NCBI RefSeq assembly: GCF_004010195.1
Contig: NC_057713.1
Coordinates: 113,313,757 to 113,377,756 of the forward strand
DNA length: 64,000 nt
Direction: 5' to 3'
Origin: Chiloscyllium plagiosum
Lineage: Eukaryota
A program made the translations under genes and the position numbers. This document shows, in pieces, positions 38,017-47,246 of this stretch (within the stretch, counting starts at the first letter, position 1; the number at the start of each line of letters is the position of its first letter). The notes below the pieces were generated by a model that saw nothing but the letters and a program-made list of their open reading frames with translations, ran no database searches and was not told where the DNA came from.

Positions 38017-38241
38017 CTAGAATCGATCAGTTTGCTCTCTGCAGTTCCTGGAACTGAGCAACTCCGGCTCTCCTTCCTTGTCTGGTTGCCTGGAAGTTTG
38101 AATTTCAGGATCCCGAAGCTCTGAAGGAGACTCACTGCGCATATTTCTGCAGAATTCCTGTTCATTCCTGAGCTTCTGGATTTCCCTGTTTAACTCCAAC
38201 AAGGTTTTAGCGAGCTCCCGATCCTGGGATCGCATCTCCAA
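38017..38241 (-). CDS. AARD: Coding exon 2 of AARD/FAM167-family gene (74 codons + TAG)
   Basis: Polypyrimidine acceptor cttcttttgatttgccttgcAG|TTG at 38242/38241. LEMRSQDRELAKTLLELNREIQKLRNE matches the FAM167 coiled-coil motif (AARD: VEMHFQNHQLARTLLDLNMKVQQLKKE). In frame with exon 1; intron 38242-41793 is 3552 bp. Confidence 0.85.
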   Translation of the reverse strand: MEMRSQDRELAKTLLELNREIQKLRNEQEFCRNMRSESPSELRDPEIQTSRQPDKEGEPELLSSRNCREQTDRF

Positions 38242-38608
38242 CTGCAAGGCAAATCAAAAGAAGTGAGACCGCCTCTTCTGCCAATGTCCCCGTTCAGATC
38301 TGTTGTTATTGAAAAGCTTCGACTCCACCTTGGGGAAGAATCACACACTAAACCCACTCCGTGTTTCCCTTTCCTATGGATCTCGCTTGAAAAAAACCAC
38401 GACATTCCCCTCCCCCCCGCTCACATTCACTCGATCATTAACATCCGTCAACAGTGACGACATCTGCACAAAGTTAAAAATCAGACAACACCAGGTTATA
38501 GTCAACTAGGTAAAAACAATGACTGCAGATGCTGGAAACCAGATTCTGGACGAGAGTGGTGCTGGAAGAGCACAGCAGGTCAGGCAGCATCCAAGGAGCT
38601 CCGAAATC

Positions 38609-38636
38609 GACGTTTCGGGCAAAAGCCCTTCATCAG
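38609..38636 (-). ncRNA. Minimal hammerhead core (family A') on the AARD sense strand
   Basis: CUGAUGA-A-GGGC(UUUU)GCCC-GAAAC-GUC. Confidence 0.65.
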
Positions 38637-39250
38637 GTCTTGTTCATCTTCAGACAGTCCCCGAGGTTCTGCAGAGTGCTCGCAAGTAGAGGAGAAACTG
38701 CCCACTCCTGGGGTGTGCCATCAACATGTGCCCATTCATTCCAGGAACAATATCCTCATTTCATTTACACATCAAAGGAATCCACTGAATTGCACTCCGT
38801 TGAGCTCCTCTCGGCTGACTTTTATATATTTTATTAAACAGCTCACAGTTTACAAAACAATTAACATTTACATCTGTATACAGGGAAACAACAACTTTAC
38901 TAGGGAGAAGAATGGCAAAGTCAAGCCCCAAACCCTGACATTCAACCAGTTTTCAGGGAAATGAGGACAAACCTCAAATCCCAGTTCCAATCATTACAAA
39001 CAGTAACAATGACATTTGTAGAAACAAGACAGTCCAATTACGTAAGAAACAGTGCATACAATACAGACCCCCAGAAAACCCAGCAATCCCCTCCCACCTT
39101 CAGCTGGCATTTAATAAGGTCTTCTCTCAGCTGTTCCCATAGTGCTGTGATTTGTTGTGATTTGGAGAAGCCGGTGTTGGACTGGGGTGTACAAAGTTAA
39201 AAATCATACAACACCAGGTTATGGTCCAACAGGTTTAATTGGAAGCACAC

Positions 39251-39279
39251 TAGCTTTCAGAGCAGCGCTCCTTCATCAG
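39251..39279 (-). ncRNA. Minimal hammerhead core (family B) on the AARD sense strand
   Basis: CUGAUGA-A-GGAGC(GCU)GCUCU-GAAA-GCUA. Confidence 0.6.
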
Positions 39280-39882
39280 ATGATAGTGATATAACCTGGT
39301 GTTGTGTGATTTTTAATTGTTGTTTGTTAACTGTTACTACACTGTATAGAAGTTCTGTTGCTTTGGTCTTCCCCGGGGAATTATTTCACTGAAGTAACCC
39401 CAGAGCCCCTGGTCCAGATGTACCTCTGCCTGAGGCAGATCTGGCTTCCACGAGAGCGAGTGGTTTCATTGCCCGGACCCCTTCCTACCAGCTTCTCTCC
39501 GGCCATCCTGTTCTGAGGGATCACTAATCATAGAAGCAGCGCTGAGCTGGATCCCTTTCCACCTTCGTCCCGGGATTGAAATTCCTTTTGGCAGGCATGT
39601 AGGATAGGTGACCCTGCCAGTCCTAAACACAGTGCTTAATATTACACTGTAAATGTAATTAAACATCAGGCGTTTAGCACCCAGGCAGCACCAGATAAGA
39701 CCTCATCTGTTCTGCACAACCACCCAAGCCATGTTTTAAAATATTCTTTTCATGGGATGTGGGTGTAGATGCCCGAAACGTCGATTTCAAAGCTCCTAGG
39801 ATGCTGCCTGAACTGCTGTGCTCTTCCAGCACCACTAATCCTCAACACCAGGTTATAGTCCAACAGGTTTATTTGGAAGCAC

Positions 39883-39911
39883 TAGCTTTCAAAGCGCTGC
39901 TCCTTCATCAG
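39883..39911 (-). ncRNA. Minimal hammerhead core (family B) on the AARD sense strand
   Basis: CUGAUGA-A-GGAGC(AGC)GCUUU-GAAA-GCUA; stem II has two G-U pairs. Confidence 0.55.
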
Positions 39912-40049
39912 GTGGTTGCTAGTGCTTCCAATTAAACCTGTTGGACTATAACCTGGTGTTGTCTGATTTTTAACTTTGTACACCTCAGTCCAACACCGGC
40001 GTCTCCAAATCATGACTACGTTTGCAAATTCCCCCAAATCATTGGGTAC

Positions 40050-41300
40050 ACAAGTAACAACAATTTGAATTTATATTGCGCCAACATTGCACAACATTCC
40101 CGGACTCTTTAAAGGACACCACTAGAACCCGAATCACAAAAAGAGATTGGGAGAGGGGGAAATGGTCTAAAGCTGGATCAAAGAACTAACTTTTGGAAGC
40201 GATTAAAGGAGAAAATCAAAGTGGCCTAGAATTTGGGGGAGGGGGAATTCGAGAGCCTTGGAAGCTGAAGGTACAGTCCCATGCAGTGCTCGATTGGCTT
40301 GCTCAAGGGGCCAGAATTGGAGGAGGGTCGTTCTGCTATAACATGCATTTTGTTAACATGAATTCATTACAACACGATTGGGGACACTTTCTGAAGCGCG
40401 AAGGTTTAAAGCATGCATTGGTTATAACGTGATTCCGGCCCCATTAGTTTAAATAGTGCTGCTAATATGCAGCAGGAAAGCATGGAACTACCACATTAGA
40501 GCGGATGGGACTGCATCCCAGGGATATACATAGGAACATAGGCATTCCCATCAGGAGTAGGCAATTCAGCCCTTCCGAGCCTGCTCTGCCATTTAACATG
40601 ATCATGGCTGATCTTATCCTGATCTCAACCCCACTTTCCTGCCTGCTCCCCAAAGTCCTTTATCCTGCTTTTCATCAGAAACATCTATTTTCTTCTTAAA
40701 TCTGGTGGTTCTGCCTCCACTGCACTCTGGGGCAGTGAGTTCCACACATACACGGCCCTCTGAGAGAAGTTGTTTCTCTACGGGGCTGGACAGGGAGATT
40801 TTCAGAGTTAGAGAGGTCATGGACTGATGGGCATCTTGACAGGTTGCTTTAGCAAGCACAGGCTGGTGCTTGAGTGGCCAGAAGAAGTTTGGCATGAATT
40901 TAAATTCAGAGAGAATTTAACACAGTGGGAGGGTCCCCTGGGGATTTACTGGAATGGTCAAGCTCAGAGATGGAGAGAAGAGCTGGATACGGTTTCAGCA
41001 GCAGGTGAGCCCAGGTAGAAGATGCTAACACCTACAAGGGGTTGGTCATAATGGCATGGAGTCAGAGGCTTAGCTTAAACGATTAACTGTTGCACAAAGG
41101 GTCATCTCGGACAGCTTCTAGCGAGTGGGATGCAATCCTTTGCCAAGGAACTGAGGGTAATGTGGTCAGTATTTCCAACATTTGGTTGGAAAAAAGCTTC
41201 TGCTCTGCCAATACTGGGTACGGAGGGCGGTCCTCAGTGAGGGTGGGGCTGCCGACTGTCCTCAGGGTGGACAGGAAAACGGACACGATGACCCATGGGC
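40050..41300 (-). mobile_element. Degraded L2 fragment with a nested CR1 3' end (~40525-40790)
   Basis: L2-like tail (aacaacaatttgaatttatattgcgcc) and body; cataggaacatagg CR1 tail. Confidence 0.5.
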
Positions 41301-41330
41301 CGGAAACACATTCATCCTCTGTTACAGATA

Positions 41331-41552
41331 GGAGAAAGTGAGGTCTGCAGATGCTGGGGATCAGAGATGGAAATGTGTTGCTGGAAAAGCGCAGCAGGTC
41401 AGGCAGCATCTAGGGAACAGGAGAATCGACGTTTCGGGCATTAGCCCTTCTTCAGGAAATGAAGAAGGGCTAATGCCCGAAACGTCGATTCTCCTGTTCC
41501 CTAGATGCTGCCTGACCTGCTGCGCTTTTCTAGCAACACATTTCCATCTCTG
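41331..41552. mobile_element. Young palindromic mini-PLE, family A, 14-bp TSD
   Basis: 93-bp arms at 41362-41454 and 41460-41552 with one mismatch; CTCTGTTACAGATA at 41317-41330 and 41548-41561. Confidence 0.9.
41428..41455 (-). ncRNA. Minimal hammerhead core (family A) on the AARD sense strand
   Basis: CUGAAGA-A-GGGC(UAAU)GCCC-GAAAC-GUC. Confidence 0.65.
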
Positions 41553-41793
41553 TTACAGATATGCTTACAAACAAAACCAACCCAGTTCAAGGACGTTAGC
41601 GGTTCATGTTCTTTACAGGGAGTACAGGAGCTGGGGTAAGGGGTTGGGATTGAGGTTGGGTCTGCTCCCCAGACAGCTGGAGGAGCGGCTCAGCTCCACA
41701 GAGAGTGAGCTCCGGCCCTGCTCTGAGAAATGGGGTGGGATTGGGAGTTTGGGAAAGAGCTGAAGTTGAACAGATATGGAGTTTTGTCCTCAC

Positions 41794-41997
41794 CAGTTCA
41801 GTCCGGAGCCAAGTGATGGCCCCATCGATCTTGGCTCTGCGGAGTTCCTGATCAGCCCGAGGGTTGGTGCTGAGCGACCAGGAAGCAGGCGGCTCTCTCT
41901 GGGCGGAAGTTACCCTGAAGGCGCTCAGCAGCCTGTGTTTGATGTTCTCCAGCAGCAGGTCAGAGACACTGTCCTCATACTGGCTGTCAGTGCTCAT
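41794..41997 (-). CDS. AARD: Coding exon 1 of an AARD (alanine/arginine-rich domain, FAM167 family) orthologue, 68 codons
   Basis: ATG at 41997 (gcaATGa, purine at -3). Translation MSTDSQ...LLLENIKHRLLSAF...KIDGAITWLRTEL resembles human AARD as I recall it (LLEDLRRRLTRAF...GVEATLARLRAEL). Phase-0 donor CTG|GTGAGG at 41794/41793. Confidence 0.85.
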
Positions 41998-42320
41998 TGC
42001 TGTAACAGGCGCTCGCTCAGGCAACGCTCCAGCAGGGAGTTCTCCCTCTCCACTCCCTCTCCGGAGTGAAGCTGCCCCTTCCCGGGAGGAGCATTGCCGA
42101 GGCTCCCTCTCCCTCTGTCTCGCACTCCCGGTTTTCCAGGGCTGGGGAGTTTTGTTTGGGGTCGCTGCGCAGCCGTTGCACTGCAGCGAGCCGCTTTGTC
42201 AGCGTTACTATGGCAAGCTGCGAGGGAGACAAAGCCGCTGAGATTGTCCACTGCTTCACCATCCCATCATCCCCCCCCCACCCCCACCCCCCCAACAGGA
42301 GGGGGAGGGGGTGAGAGAGA
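41998..42320 (-). promoter_or_regulatory. GC/CpG-rich putative 5'UTR and promoter of AARD
   Basis: Local GC and CpG enrichment directly upstream of the ATG, with C/G runs at 42271-42311. Transcription start not determined. Confidence 0.45.
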
Positions 42321-42612
42321 GCTGCTCACCGCTACAACCCATACCCTGAAGAGACCTGGAGTCAGAATGTCAGCTTCCCACCCAGATCTATCCCTTGGTC
42401 AATCAGGGGCTTGTGCCACACTCATGTCAGAAATCCAGCCGCGCCATCTACACCAACCCCGCCACACATTAAACTCTCTCAGACCAGCACACAGCTCCCG
42501 GTTCCAACAGGAAGCACGGTTAGTGTTGAAGTGTTGTGTTTTATTTGTGTGTGTCGATGAACCGTTTCCAGTATCAATGAGAGAGGGGCTGGCGCAGTGC
42601 TCCCTTTCCGCT

Positions 42613-44046
42613 GGTCTTGTTCATCTCCAGACAGTCCCCGAGGTTCTGCAGAGTGCTTGCAAGTAGAGGAGAAACTGCCCACTCCTGGGGTGTGCCATCA
42701 ACATGTGCCCATTCATTCCAGGAACAATATCCTCATTTCATTTACACATCAAAGGAATCCACTGAATTGCACTCCGTTGAACTCCTCTCGGCTGACTTTT
42801 ATATATTTTATTAAACAGCTCAGTTTACAAAACAATTAACATTTACGTCTGTATACAGAGAAACAGCAACTTTACTAGGGAGAAGAATGGCAAAGCCAAG
42901 CCCCAAATCCTGACATTCAACCACTTTTCAGGGAAATGAGGACAAACCTCAAATCCCAGTTCCAATCATTACAAACAGTAACAATGACATTTAGATTAGA
43001 TTAGATTAGATTAGATTACTTACAGATTACTTACTTCGGCCCAACAAGTCCACACCGACCCGCCGAAGCGAAACCCATACCCCTACATTTACCCCTTACC
43101 TAACACTGCGGGCAATTTAACATGGCCAATTCACCTGACCTGCACATCTTTGGATGGTGGGAGGAAACCGGAGCACCCGGAGGAAACCCACGCAGACACG
43201 GGGAGAATGTGCAAACTCCACACAGGAATTGAACCCGGGTCTCTGGCGCTGTGAAGCAGCAGTGCTAACCACTGTGCCACCGTGTCGCCCACGGTAGAAA
43301 CAAGACAGTCCAATTACGTAAGAAACAGTGCATACAATACAGACCCCCAGAAAACCCAGCAATCCCCTCCCACCTTCAGCTGGCATTTAATAAGGTCTTC
43401 CCTCAGCTGTTTCCATAGTGCTGTGATTTGTTGTGATTTGGAGATGCCAGTGTTGGACTGGAGTGTACAAAGTTAAAATCACACAACACCAGGTTATGGT
43501 CCAACAGGTTTAATTGGAAGCACACTAGTTTTCGGAGCAGCGCTCCTTCATCAGATGATAGTGATATAACCTGGTATTGTGTGATTTTTAATTGTTGTTT
43601 GTTAACTGTTACTACACTGTATAGAAGTTCTGTTGCTTTGGTCTTCCCCGGGGAATTATTTCACTGAAGTAACCCCAGAGCCCCTGGTCCAGATGTATCT
43701 CTGCCTGAGGCAGATCTGGCTTCCACGAGAGCGAGTGGTTTCATTGCCCGGACCCCTTCCTACCAGCTTCTCTCCGGCCATCCTGTTCTGAGGGATCACT
43801 AATCATAGAAGCAGCGCTGAGCTGGTTCCCTTTCCACCTTCGTCCCGGGATTGAAATTCCTTTTGGCAGGCATGTAGGATAGGTGACCCTGCCAGTCCTA
43901 AACACAGTGCTTAATATTACACTGTAAATGTAATTAAACATCAGGCGTTTAGCACCCAGGCAGCACCAGATAAGACCTCATCTGTTCTGCACAACCACCC
44001 AAGCCATGTTTTAAAATATTCTTTTCATGGGATGTGGGTGTAGATG
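42613..44046. repeat. Source copy of the local duplication (direct repeat of 38636-39771, plus a 301-bp HE1)
   Basis: Colinear match with roughly 20 substitutions/indels counted by eye. Confidence 0.9.
42993..43293 (-). mobile_element. HE1 SINE present only in the upstream duplicate
   Basis: (AGATT)n tail; empty site gacattt|gtagaaac in the intronic copy. Confidence 0.9.
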
Positions 44047-44435
44047 GCCAGTCTAGCATTATTTCTTATCCCTAACTTCCTTTGTGAAAGTGGCAGTGAG
44101 CTGCCTGTTTGAACTGTTTGCAGTGCTGGATTGTAGGAACATCCACAAGGCTATTAGGATTGGAATTTCGAGGGTTTAACCCAGTGACAGTGAAGGAACT
44201 GCAATACAATCCCAAGCCAGGATGGTGTGACATTTGAAGGGGTACTTGCAGGTGGCACTGCTGTTGTCCTTCTGGGTAGAGACTGCAGGTTTGGAAGGTG
44301 ATAGTAAAGGGCTTTTAGTGAGTTGTTGCTCTTTCTGCACCAAACATCAATAATTATGCAATGTTTAGTAATCCTCTTGATTCCTCATGTAATGATGCAG
44401 TCTGTGATATTGTTCAGCAAGTCCTATATAACATT

Positions 44436-45963
44436 CAGAGTCGAGAGTTTGGTGCTGGAAAAGAACAGCAGGTCAGGCAGCATCTGAGGAGCAGGAGATC
44501 CGATATTTCGGACAAAAGCCCTTCATCAGGAATGATGCTTGTGGACCGGGGCTGACAGATAAATGGGAGGGGGTGGGGCTGGTGGGAGGGTAGCTGAGAG
44601 TGTGATAGGTAGATAAAGGTGGGGGAGAAGGTGGTAGGTCGGAGAGGAGGANNNNNNNNNNNNNNNNNNNNNNNNNNNNNNNNNNNNNNNNNNNNNNNNN
44701 NNNNNNNNNNNNNNNNNNNNNNNNNNNNNNNNNNNNNNNNNNNNNNNNNNNNNNNNNNNNNNNNNNNNNNNNNNNNNNNNNNNNNNNNNNNNNNNNNNNN
44801 NNNNNNNNNNNNNNNNNNGTGTTAAAGTATTCAGCCATGGGGCAGTGGGGTTGGTTGGTGTGGGTGTCCCAGAGATATTCTCTGAAACAATCCACAAGTT
44901 GGCATCCTGTATCCCCGATGTAGAAGAGACCACCTCAGGTGCAATGGATACAGTAGATGACATTAGTGGAGGTACAGGTAAATTTCTGTCAGATGTGGAA
45001 GGATCCTTTGGGGCTTTGAACCAAGGTGAGGGGGAGGTGTGTGTGCAGTGGCAAGGTAAGGGGGCTGGAGTGGGGTGTGGAAGGTTTGGAGCGAGGATCT
45101 GACAAAGGAATCATGGAGGGAATGGTCTCTCCAAATCGCTGATAGGGTGGGGGGAAACATATCGCTAGTGGTGGGGTCTGTTTGTAGGTGGCGGAAGTGG
45201 CAAAGGATGATGCAGAGGTTGGTGGGATGGAAGATGAGGACCAGGGCAGTTTTGTCCTTGCTGCATTAGGAGGGGTGGGGTTCAAGGGCATAGGTGCGGG
45301 AAGTGGAGGAGATGTGCTGGAGGCCGTCATCGAACGTTGGGAGGGGAAATTGCAGTCTTTGGAGAAGGAGACCATCTGAGGTGTTCTATGATGGAATTGG
45401 TCACCCTGGGAACAGATATGGCAGAGGTGGAGGAATTAGGAATAAGGGATGGCATTTTTACAGGAGACAGGGTGGGAGGAGGTGTAGTCCAGTTAGTGGG
45501 TTTGTAATAGATGTCCGTGGTTAGTTGGTTGCTGGAGATGGAGATGGAGAGGTCTAGGAAGGGGAGGGAAGTGTCCGAGGTGGTCCAGGTGAATTTAAGG
45601 TCGGGTTGAAAGGTGTTAGTGAAGTTGATGAATTGTTTAACCTCCTCATGGGAGCACGAGGTAGCGCTGATACAATCATCAATGTAGCGGAGGAAAAGTG
45701 GGGGTTGGTACCGGTGTAGCTGGAGGATTGGAAGGTGAAGTTGTTGAGTGTGAGGACCAGTTCAGCCAAGTGGATGAGGGTGTCGGTGAAAGGGTACTGG
45801 TTGGGTCAGCATGAGGTTAAGAAATAGAGGATTTGGAGGGCTTGAAGGGCATATGCCCGAAACATTGATTCTCCTGCTCCTCGGAAGCTGTCTGATCTGC
45901 TGTGCTTTTCCAGCACCACACTCCTGACTCTGATCTCCAGCTTCTGCAGTCCTCACTTTCTCC
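44436..45963 (-). mobile_element. 5'-truncated Penelope-like retroelement (RT + GIY-YIG endonuclease) with inverted 5' pseudo-LTR
   Basis: FLRYIDDC (YIDD at 45675-45686), AELVLTLNNFTF, NVIYCIHC..GLFYIGDTG (44914-44961); family-A arms at both ends; direct repeat TAT(A/T)TAACATTCAGA at 44425-44439 and 45964-45978. Confidence 0.9.
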
Positions 45964-47246
45964 TATTTAACATTCAGAAGAATATAGATTATTGTCAGTG
46001 GTCCACACTGCTGCCATTGTCCATTGGCAGTAGGAGGATTGAATATTTAAAATGGTGATGCCAATCAAGCGGGCTGCATTGTCCTTGATGGTACCAAGCT
46101 TCTTGCACTCATCCAGGCAAGTGGGGAGTATTCCATCACACTCCCGACTTGTGTCTTATATATAGGTGGAGAGGCTTTAGAAAGCTACTTGCTGCAGACT
46201 TCCCAGTCTCTCTTTTTTATCCTCTGTATGTATATGATTGGTCCAGATCAGTTTCTGGTCAATGGTAACCTCCAGGATGTTAATAATGGGTGGTGGTTCA
46301 GCAATGGTAATGACATTGAATGTCAAGGGGAGACAGTTTGATTATCTCTTGGTCATTGCCTGGCACTTGTATGGCGCAAAGGTTGTTTGCCATTTATCAG
46401 CCCAAGCCCTTGTTGTACTGTTTAGGGCTTGCTGAACATGTACACAGACTGCATCAGTATAAGAGGAATGAAAAGTGAAACTAAACATTGCGTGGTTATC
46501 ACTGATCATCCCAACTTCCTACCTTGTGATGGAAAGTAGGTGATTGATGAAGTAGCTGAAGATGATTCGCCAAGGACACCACTGTGTTCTAAGGAAGGAT
46601 CACTCAACTTGAAATGTTAACTCTGATTTCTCTCTGCAGATGCTGCCAGACCTGCTGAGCTTTTCCAGCAATTTCTGTTTTTGATGCTACTCTGTTTCAT
46701 CAGTTCTTTCAGTTTTTATTGAATAGAGTGATGTTGGTAGAGCCTCCTCCTCCTAGTAATTGTTGAATTATCCACTATCATTCACAAATGTCCATGGTAG
46801 GACTTCAATCTTATCTGTTTGTTGTGGACCACTTATCTCTTTATATTGCAAGCTGCTTCTGCTGTTAACCTGTGGTAGCCCTAAATTGTAGCTTCATTAG
46901 ATCAACTCCTCATTTTTAGGTCTGGATGGTGCCCCTCCACGCTGTCTTGCATTATTCTCTGAACCAGGATTGATCCCCCGATGTGGTGGTGATTAATAGA
47001 GTTGGAATTGTGGTTGAATACAATTCTGCTACTGCTAATGGCATGCAGTGCTTCATGGGCACCAAGTTTTGAGTTCCTAGATCTGTTCAAAATGTATCCC
47101 ATTTAACACAATGGTAGTGCCATACAATACGATAGAGGGTTAACTTCAATGTAGAGTCAGGACTTCACCTCCACAGGGAATGTGTGGTGGTCACTCGTGT
47201 CAAAACTGTAATACACAGATACATCTATGACAGATTGATTGGTGGG

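What the first reader, a model, noticed from the sequence alone, without database searches (positions are those of the whole stretch)
38486..39860. Hammerhead-armed Penelope mini-element carrying a ~1.13 kb copy of host upstream DNA into the AARD intron
Seen: two inverted PLE pseudo-LTR arms (38507-38637, 39769-39842) enclose a copy (38636-39771) of 42613-44046, the region 0.6-2 kb upstream of the AARD ATG. Both junctions fall at the hammerhead motif, with 2-3 nt microhomology (GG left, ATG/TG right). The whole unit is bounded by an 18-bp duplication CAACACCAGGTTATAGTC of a family-B element it interrupts. The upstream copy is the likely donor, because a LINE tail continues across its right boundary but is cut in the intronic copy. 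Inference: host DNA was captured between PLE arms, either by template switching during integration or by templated repair of a break at the palindrome centre. That would make a cargo-carrying PLE able to duplicate regulatory DNA. I do not know of this being described in sharks.
Basis: partly seen in the sequence, partly recalled or inferred. Interest (0 to 1): 0.8.

Follow-up and report, generated by a model that had tools for sequence, protein, structure and literature searches.

The report
Local DNA copied into Penelope insertion
A Penelope-type jumping-gene fragment in a shark AARD intron holds, between its two inverted ends, a 1.1-kb copy of DNA from 4 kb away; it looks like a recurring by-product of how these elements insert, close to captures already described, and this copy has not spread further.

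Summary
The structure is in the assembly as described: target duplication, tailed arm, 1,136-bp copy of 42613-44046 (20 substitutions), inverted tail-less arm, all inside the AARD intron; the upstream copy is the donor. Reads could not be tested. The hammerhead-edge junction is this family's ordinary inner end (1,003 arms genome-wide stop at the same base), and neither arm keeps a whole ribozyme. The cargo's single-copy part occurs only twice, so this unit has not moved. Nothing shows that the cargo is regulatory; about 40% is repeats. Two things strengthen it: 2 of 65 other inverted-pair insertions also carry a microhomology-joined copy of nearby DNA, and a separate 41-copy family carries at least 0.7 kb of non-Penelope DNA on a Penelope 3' end. 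Best model: both target strands prime cDNA, one free end copies neighbouring DNA, and the ends then join (55%); later repair (20%) and a local RNA template (17%) remain open. Host DNA between Penelope repeats is published for a rotifer, local templated insertion for human L1. The scan noted the same thing before at other places in this genome.

The parts
38465..38485 (-). Outer part of the left arm of the interrupted family-B hairpin element (target of the insertion)
   Evidence: continues in 39843-39914; 63 of 65 bases match the partner arm 39918-40018
38486..38506 (.). Left copy of target-site duplication (18 bp exact; 21 vs 22 bp with one lost base)
38507..38637 (-). Tailed PLE arm (3' end module of a Neptune-like element): ~45-bp tail, then pLTR stretch, ending one base past the CUGAUGA core
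   Evidence: 39 relatives at 91-95%, most continuing into PLE body; body encodes RYIDD RT motif and GIY-YIG-type C-terminus
38609..38636 (-). Minimal hammerhead core motif (CUGAUGA, 4-bp helix II, GAAAC-GUC); helix I partner replaced by cargo, so probably inactive
   Evidence: read by eye against PMC4209133 passages; Rfam gave no hammerhead match; RNAfold does not form the fold, z -0.65
38636..39771 (+). Cargo: 1,136-bp direct copy of 42613-44046 without the SINE
   Evidence: 20 substitutions, 2 small indels; single-copy part in 2 places in the genome
38820..39101 (.). Dispersed repeat (family C) inside the cargo
   Evidence: 43 of 46 matches cover only this stretch, 77-90% identity
39154..39316 (.). 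Family-B hairpin mini-element inside the cargo (older than the duplication; also at 43430-43591)
39734..39771 (-). Cut end of a LINE-type tail repeat, continuous in the donor
   Evidence: (I18, I20); 'LINE-type' is a recalled label
39769..39841 (+). Inverted tail-less PLE arm; starts in the 3' strand of helix II, no CUGAUGA
   Evidence: outer end within 3 nt of the common second start (arm position ~49) seen
39843..39864 (.). Right copy of target-site duplication
39865..40018 (.). Remainder of the interrupted family-B element (rest of left arm, centre, right arm)
42613..44046 (+). Donor stretch, 0.6-2.0 kb upstream of the AARD start codon; no PLE family-A arm at either boundary
42993..43293 (-). 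SINE-like insert gained by the donor after the copy was made (or absent from the copied allele)
   Evidence: family-C relatives are continuous across the site
41794..41997 (-). AARD coding exon 1 (approximate 3' edge)
38020..38241 (-). AARD coding exon 2 (approximate)
41329..41552 (.). Comparison: cargo-free inverted-pair insertion with 14-bp duplication in the same intron
44435..45968 (.). Comparison: inverted-pair insertion with PLE body (RT and endonuclease remnants) between the arms

Best explanation
A single insertion event of a Neptune-like Penelope element. The endonuclease nicked both strands about 22 bp apart inside a family-B element; each 3' end primed a cDNA on PLE RNA, one from the tail start and one from the second, tail-less start, and both stopped at the front edge of the hammerhead as most copies do. 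Instead of joining each other directly, one free cDNA end annealed by 2-3 bases to DNA 4 kb away on the same chromatid or its sister, was extended for 1.13 kb (by the PLE RT or a host repair polymerase), released, and joined the other cDNA by 2-3 bases. The product is a one-off local templated duplication sealed inside an ordinary inverted-pair PLE insertion. Shown: anatomy, donor, copy number, recurrence. Inferred: order of steps, timing at integration, DNA template, enzyme.
For: Anatomy equals the family norm except for the centre: of 67 auto-detected duplication-bounded inverted pairs, 41 have centres under 25 bp and 16 are PLE-only. Both junction positions are those of cargo-free hairpins (centres printed; 1,003 arms end at the same base), so no extra resection is seen. 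Two independent loci have the same build: L120, 227-230 bp direct copy of DNA 625-854 bp away, 226 of 230 identical, 4- and 3-base microhomologies; L054, a 76-bp inverted copy from about 60-130 bp away plus a 28-bp piece from about 1 kb away plus a third arm piece. All three donors are within 4.8 kb; the fold-back and multi-piece patch of L054 is what DNA-templated patching gives (inference). In L120 the cargo is flanked by short inner arms identical over 26 of 26 bases inside older outer arms (88 of 95), so fresh PLE cDNA and cargo arrived together. No splicing, no poly(A), and no error excess in the copy: 5 changes on the intronic copy, 7 on the donor, 1 ambiguous, 7 not polarisable, of 20. 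A Poseidon PLE protein cuts and extends both strands from two RNA start sites, without needing hammerhead cleavage (PMC11167929). The same outcome is reported for L1.
Against: The two arms differ more from each other (4 of 67, plus a local change at the tail edge) than cargo from donor (20 of 1,136; Fisher p 0.04), which would fit a cargo younger than the arms; against the more diverged left 685 bp the excess is not significant (p 0.10). At 1.13 kb and 4 kb distance this is far larger and farther than the L1 templated insertions (under 250 bp, within 15 bp). Nothing here separates a DNA from a nascent-RNA template or names the polymerase. No reads, no orthologous site.
Confidence: 0.55

Rival explanations
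1. Later repair: an ordinary cargo-free hairpin insertion came first; its centre later broke (cruciform or hairpin cleavage) and was patched by strand invasion into DNA 4 kb away.
For: Arm-arm divergence exceeds cargo-donor divergence here (p 0.04). In L120 the cargo unit sits at the centre of an older, more decayed hairpin, so hairpin centres are hit secondarily.
Against: Junctions lie where cargo-free hairpins have them, with no extra loss. In L120 the secondary event brought new PLE arm sequence on both sides of the cargo, so it needed PLE template too. Cargo divergence is uneven (18 of 685 vs 2 of 452, p 0.005 on a split chosen after seeing the data), so conversion with the donor may have made the cargo look young.
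Confidence: 0.2
2. Capture at integration from a local RNA: the RT jumped from PLE RNA to a nascent transcript of the AARD upstream region (for example a divergent + strand transcript whose 5' end lies near 42613) and copied it.
For: The donor begins about 600 bp upstream of the AARD start codon, just beyond the G+C-rich stretch, where a divergent transcript could begin (inference). The RT does join two RNAs: in L163 and L173 PLE body is fused to cargo-family sequence at different points. PLEs copy unspliced templates (PMC3846280).
Against: No transcript evidence. L054 has a fold-back copy next to the target and a 28-bp second piece, simpler on DNA. No poly(A) or splice join.
Confidence: 0.17
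3. A transduced unit: arm plus cargo was transcribed at a source locus and inserted here as a mobile composite.
For: Such composites exist in this genome: a 41-copy family of host-like DNA on a PLE 3' end.
Against: Single-copy cargo has 2 matches of 2 candidates, the donor has no family-A arm at either boundary, and the nearest arms (44435, 45844) are a different subfamily, about 82-84% alike.
Confidence: 0.03
4. Assembly artefact: two haplotypes merged in a short-read scaffold.
For: The assembly is gappy (13,282 N in 464 kb) and some other local duplicates in that stretch are 100% identical and may be artefacts. No reads were seen.
Against: No gap in 38486-44651; copies differ in both directions and by a SINE; the duplicate is nested exactly between two arms and a target duplication that rebuilds a family-B arm (63 of 65); two more loci share the build.
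Confidence: 0.05

Closest known systems
Host DNA between Penelope pLTRs in Adineta vaga (Arkhipova, Yushenova, Rodriguez 2013, PMC3846280; main text read, parts 1-4 of 5)
   Same: Inverted pLTR, one-sided tail, target duplication; an NRPS gene and 'a few other cases' of unrelated non-coding sequence between pLTRs with duplications; Pen1 spacers of 0.9-1.5 kb formed by host DNA capture.
   Different: There the NRPS gene lies between two direct pLTRs and is read as mobilised in trans; no local donor or microhomology junctions are described in what I read. Here the cargo lies between the inner ends of two inverted arms, the donor is 4 kb away, and the unit has not moved.
Templated insertions at L1 twin-priming junctions (bioRxiv 10.1101/2024.08.27.596794, passages; PMC11702581, passages)
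   Same: Retroelement insertion primed from both strands, with nearby genomic DNA copied into the junction, proposed as cDNA release and SDSA-like copying.
   Different: Different element class (no poly(A), GIY-YIG nuclease, both arms are the same end module); somatic or cell-line events, typically under 250 bp and within 15 bp of the site, against 1.13 kb from 4 kb away in a germline assembly. The preprint's Supplementary Fig. 4d with the sizes was not seen.
Insertion architecture of endonuclease-bearing PLEs (PMC8557442 passages; PMC11167929 parts 1-2 of 4)
   Same: 5'-truncated copy plus adjacent inverted copy, 30-40-bp tail on one end, two RT start sites, both strands cut and extended.
   Different: Host DNA at the inversion junction is not mentioned in the passages seen.
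Minimal hammerheads of PLE pLTRs (PMC4209133, passages) and animal non-LTR retrozymes (10.64898/2026.07.22.740005, part 1 of 5)
   Same: Core motif without helix III, in Neptune-type repeats of fishes.
   Different: No tandem array, one arm lacks the core and the other lacks helix I: not a retrozyme and not a working ribozyme pair.

Membership tests
Endonuclease-bearing PLE insertion (Neptune-like) | Arm is the end module of an element encoding PLE RT and C-terminal GIY-YIG nuclease | tested here: met
   Subfamily relatives continue into a body that translates to a GIY-YIG-type C-terminus (motif read by eye); the window's neighbouring element gives an RYIDD RT stretch whose nearest Atlas clusters carry PF26215/PF00078 (score 0.95-0.96) and aligns with the subfamily body (E 9e-14). 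Pfam scan of both fragments: 0 families. The unit itself has no coding sequence.
Endonuclease-bearing PLE insertion (Neptune-like) | Placement in the Neptune clade by RT phylogeny or Cys-rich linker | not tested
   The label 'Neptune-like' is recalled from the look of the C-terminus; no tree was built.
Endonuclease-bearing PLE insertion (Neptune-like) | Inverted truncated second copy, tail on one end only, target-site duplication | tested here: met
Minimal hammerhead ribozyme (min-HHR) | Conserved core CUGANGA / helix II / GAAAC-GUC | tested here: met
   Left arm only, by eye; absent from right arm; no Rfam hammerhead match at E<=1.
Minimal hammerhead ribozyme (min-HHR) | Helix I closing the core, and a partner for the dimer fold | tested here: not met
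   Cargo replaces the 5' strand after one base; fold not predicted.
Non-LTR retrozyme | Tandem monomers each with a complete type I hammerhead | tested here: not met
   Head-to-head arms, single unit; definition.
Cargo-carrying non-autonomous PLE (mobile composite) | Arm plus cargo at two or more sites with different target duplications | tested here: not met
   2 places only for the cargo, one without arms. Met by the separate 41-copy family.
Templated insertion at a twin-primed junction | Non-element sequence at the inner junction, copied from near the site, short microhomology, target duplication kept | tested here: met
Templated insertion at a twin-primed junction | Formed in the same event as the insertion | tested here: inconclusive
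   Arm-arm 4 of 67 vs cargo 20 of 1,136; no orthologue or allele available.

The most novel reading that the evidence does not exclude
In this shark the free cDNA ends of Penelope insertions regularly copy neighbouring chromosomal DNA, up to kilobase length, making PLEs a genome-wide source of local duplications (order of thousands of events by rough extrapolation); and because any sequence lying 5' of a PLE end module can be reverse-transcribed, such chimeras can seed amplified cargo families like the 41-copy one. The AARD unit would be an unamplified precursor of that kind, holding a second copy of AARD upstream DNA in the gene's only coding intron.
Probability: 0.4. Interest if true: 0.65.

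Novelty: new variant of a known kind. Interest (0 to 1): 0.42.

Why it matters
How PLE insertions are finished is an open question (PMC11167929 and PMC8557442 both say the later steps are not validated). Junction-captured local DNA records that step: it shows two free, invasive cDNA ends that join by microhomology, and a genome with about 10^5 inverted-pair insertions lets donor distance, strand and age be measured. It also adds a route to local duplication in shark genomes. This single locus has no shown function.

Tried and rejected
Read support: not obtained, so misassembly is argued against from sequence only. Rfam: 7 matches, all hairpin-type miRNA/sRNA models below their gathering scores, no hammerhead. 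RNAfold: no hammerhead fold in 3 stretches. Pfam: nothing for 2 PLE fragments; one weak chance match for AARD exon 1. Hammerhead cleavage as cause of the junction: rejected, the junction is 28 nt from the cut site and at the family's usual end. SINE 'spliced out' of the copy: rejected, no GT-AG on either strand and family-C relatives lack it. Recombination between the family-B copies in target and cargo: rejected, breakpoints are in the family-A arms. Four solo arms without evident duplication (L121, L123, L138, L155) extended to 10 kb: no duplication, matching partner arm or local donor in 4 of 4; other such solos were not extended. L118 first looked like a second cargo case but belongs to the amplified family. 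A PLE-free donor for that family was not found: 0 matches of the cargo end with another continuation, 41 with the PLE continuation, 37 of 37 candidates for the inner cargo lie beside family copies. Of 7 'non-PLE, no local donor' rows: L104 is a false pair, L075, L124 and one 464-kb row are PLE-derived, L164 and L175 are the amplified family, L150 has about 70 bp of unsourced filler. The automated count missed L118. PMC9977147 (passages) held nothing on PLE-linked duplication. Literature searches: searches gave the papers cited; others (Neptune, Penelope-like, shark, transposable elements; Penelope-like, transduction, host DNA, pLTR) gave 0 papers. The library lacks most subscription papers, so absence from print is not established.

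Full report
Observation. A self-comparison gives 38636-39017 to 42613-42992 (97.1%) and 39018-39774 to 43294-44049 (98.3%); base by base there are 20 substitutions (17 transitions), a 2-bp and a 1-bp indel, and 301 bp (42993-43293, SINE-like) present only upstream. The arms are 38507-38637 and 39769-39841, inverted, 63 of 67 alike. The 18-bp duplication is exact and probably 21/22 bp with one base lost. Leaving the insertion out rebuilds a family-B arm that matches its partner at 63 of 65 bases. The gene is AARD (93% to a named shark protein), on the - strand, with coding exons near 41997-41794 and 38241-38020. No N lies between 38486 and 44651. Reads were not available.

Donor and age. A repeat crosses the right boundary of the upstream copy (3 of 13 hits span it) and is cut in the intronic copy, so upstream is the donor. 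Family-C relatives lack the SINE, so it came later or was absent from the copied allele. Of 20 differences, relatives polarise 13: 7 on the donor, 5 on the intronic copy, 1 ambiguous. The copies have aged independently and the copy shows no error excess. Divergence is uneven (18 of 685 vs 2 of 452; p 0.005 for a split chosen afterwards; 13 of 445 in repeats vs 7 of 691 elsewhere, p 0.02), which could be gene conversion or constraint. About 40% of the cargo is repeats (family C 38820-39101; family B 39154-39316; a cut LINE-type tail).

What the arms are. The left arm had 363 candidates, 40 scored; 39 loci were read. In most the arm continues into a body that translates to a GIY-YIG-type C-terminus (motif read by eye, Pfam silent). 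The neighbouring element at 44435-45968 has the same two-arm build with PLE body inside, including an RYIDD stretch whose nearest Atlas clusters carry PF26215 and PF00078. One arm usually carries a tail of about 45 bp and the inverted arm starts near position 49, as here. This is the published PLE architecture (PMC8557442 passages; PMC3846280), and matches the two RT start sites and two-strand extension shown for an anole PLE (PMC11167929). 'Neptune-like' is my recalled label, not tested by a tree.

The hammerhead is not the special part. An exact pattern for arms that stop at the same base as our left junction has 1,003 matches genome-wide, control 0. Cargo-free hairpins have centres of the same form as our two junctions. 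The left junction is 28 nt from the cleavage site; the left arm has lost helix I and the right arm the core; Rfam and RNAfold show no hammerhead. Hammerhead cleavage was not needed for insertion in vitro, and minimal hammerheads need a dimer (PMC4209133 passages).

The unit has not moved. The single-copy cargo 39320-39730 has 2 matches of 2 candidates, this copy and the donor; the first 160 bp likewise match only these two among 40 scored candidates. The donor has no family-A arm at either end.

It recurs. I scanned 131 held stretches (938,676 bases: 464 kb around the window, subfamily loci, and the first 70 of the 1,003 junction matches, plus follow-ups; not a random sample). 67 duplication-bounded inverted pairs were detected: 41 with centre under 25 bp, 16 PLE-only, 7 with other sequence and no local donor, 3 with a local donor. 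One of the 7 is a false pair, three are PLE-derived, two belong to the family below, one has about 70 bp unsourced. Leaving out ours and the false pair, 2 of 65 carry a local copy (about 3%; the interval for 2 of 66 is 0.4-10.5%); donors beyond about 1.5-2.5 kb would be missed in the short loci. L120: arm, 227-230 bp direct copy of DNA 625-854 bp away (226 of 230), inverted arm, 16-bp duplication, microhomologies of 4 and 3 bases; its short inner arms are identical (26 of 26) inside older outer arms (88 of 95). L054: 76-bp inverted copy from about 60-130 bp away, a 28-bp piece from about 1 kb away and a third arm piece. In the 464 kb around the window 15 convincing pairs were found, ours the only one with long host cargo (a 16th row with an 8-bp match was dropped). 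Scaling 15 per 0.45 Mb to 3.56 Gb gives about 10^5 pairs and a few thousand local captures; this is a rough extrapolation.

A truly mobile cargo family exists, elsewhere. The centre of L118 has at least 40 copies at 98-100%. It is a PLE 3' end (about 196 bp of body plus the arm) fused to non-PLE DNA with decayed host repeats, 41 copies with the same junction, 5'-truncated at different points, with separate target duplications, reaching at least 728 bp of cargo in L175 and joined to PLE RT body at different points in L163 and L173. No PLE-free donor was found, so the source may be one of the copies or be missing from the assembly.

Mechanism. Most likely (0.55) both nicked strands primed cDNA, one end copied neighbouring DNA through 2-3 bases of microhomology and then joined the other. 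Locality of all three donors, the fold-back patch in L054, unchanged junction positions and the fresh inner arms of L120 favour this. Against it, the arms differ more than cargo and donor do (p 0.04; p 0.10 against the more diverged part), which keeps later repair alive (0.20), and a nascent upstream transcript could be the template (0.17). Transduction from another site (0.03) and misassembly (0.05) fit badly.

Known or new. Host DNA between pLTRs with target duplications, including non-coding cases and 0.9-1.5-kb spacers, is described for Adineta vaga (PMC3846280, parts 1-4 of 5 read). Local templated insertions are described for L1: 22 cases, typically under 250 bp and within 15 bp (bioRxiv 2024.08.27.596794, passages; its supplement not seen), and 3 cases in cell models (PMC11702581, passages). 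I found no paper on local templated capture at PLE inversion junctions or on this in sharks (searches; open-access library only). Earlier notes of this scan report the same build at other places in this genome; I had fixed my reading before seeing them and did not check their loci. Verdict: real in the assembly, a new variant of a known kind; useful as a handle on the unexplained last step of PLE integration; no function shown at AARD. Interest 0.42.

Noticed in passing
L118:1527-1982, L163, L164, L173-L175 (e.g. G000:C1:71440768, C13:21655171): Very young family of 41 copies (98-100% alike) in which at least 0.7 kb of non-PLE DNA with decayed host repeats is fused 5' of a PLE 3' end; copies are 5'-truncated, have their own target duplications, and some are chimeric with PLE RT body. 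No PLE-free donor found.
   Followed up: partly
L120 (G000:C1:88027659-88030687): Same build as the finding: short arm, 227-230-bp copy of DNA 625-854 bp away, short inverted arm, apparently nested at the centre of an older hairpin with a 5-bp repeat either side.
   Followed up: yes
L054:2693-3020 (G000:C38, near 22145700): Inverted-pair insertion whose centre is a patchwork of a 76-bp inverted local copy, a 28-bp piece from about 1 kb away and a third arm fragment.
   Followed up: yes
window 33836-33893/34395-34452 and 26242-26396/27263-27417; G000:C4 about 17 kb before the window: Short local duplicates (58-174 bp, 0.5-1.3 kb apart) that seem to sit at edges of LINE-like sequence; two are 100% identical and could be assembly artefacts.
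   Followed up: no
L026:2571-5463 (G000:C4:113246327-113249219): 1.4-kb tandem duplicate (98.9%) that starts inside what looks like another PLE family's endonuclease-coding end (read by eye).
   Followed up: no
window 39320-39771 vs 43595-44046: Right part of the cargo is much closer to the donor (2 of 452) than the left (18 of 685): possible gene conversion or constraint.
   Followed up: partly
window 38820-39101 and L003-L010: Family C repeat of about 280 bp often occurs as two same-strand copies 370-570 bp apart, like the direct ends of a small element; unclassified.
   Followed up: no
window 41329-41552: Near-perfect 190-bp PLE hairpin in the same AARD intron, 250 bp from the exon 1 donor site; would form long double-stranded RNA in the pre-mRNA.
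   Followed up: no
L150:1794-1913: Inverted pair with about 70 bp of non-PLE filler that is internally repeated; no donor within 1.5 kb.
   Followed up: partly
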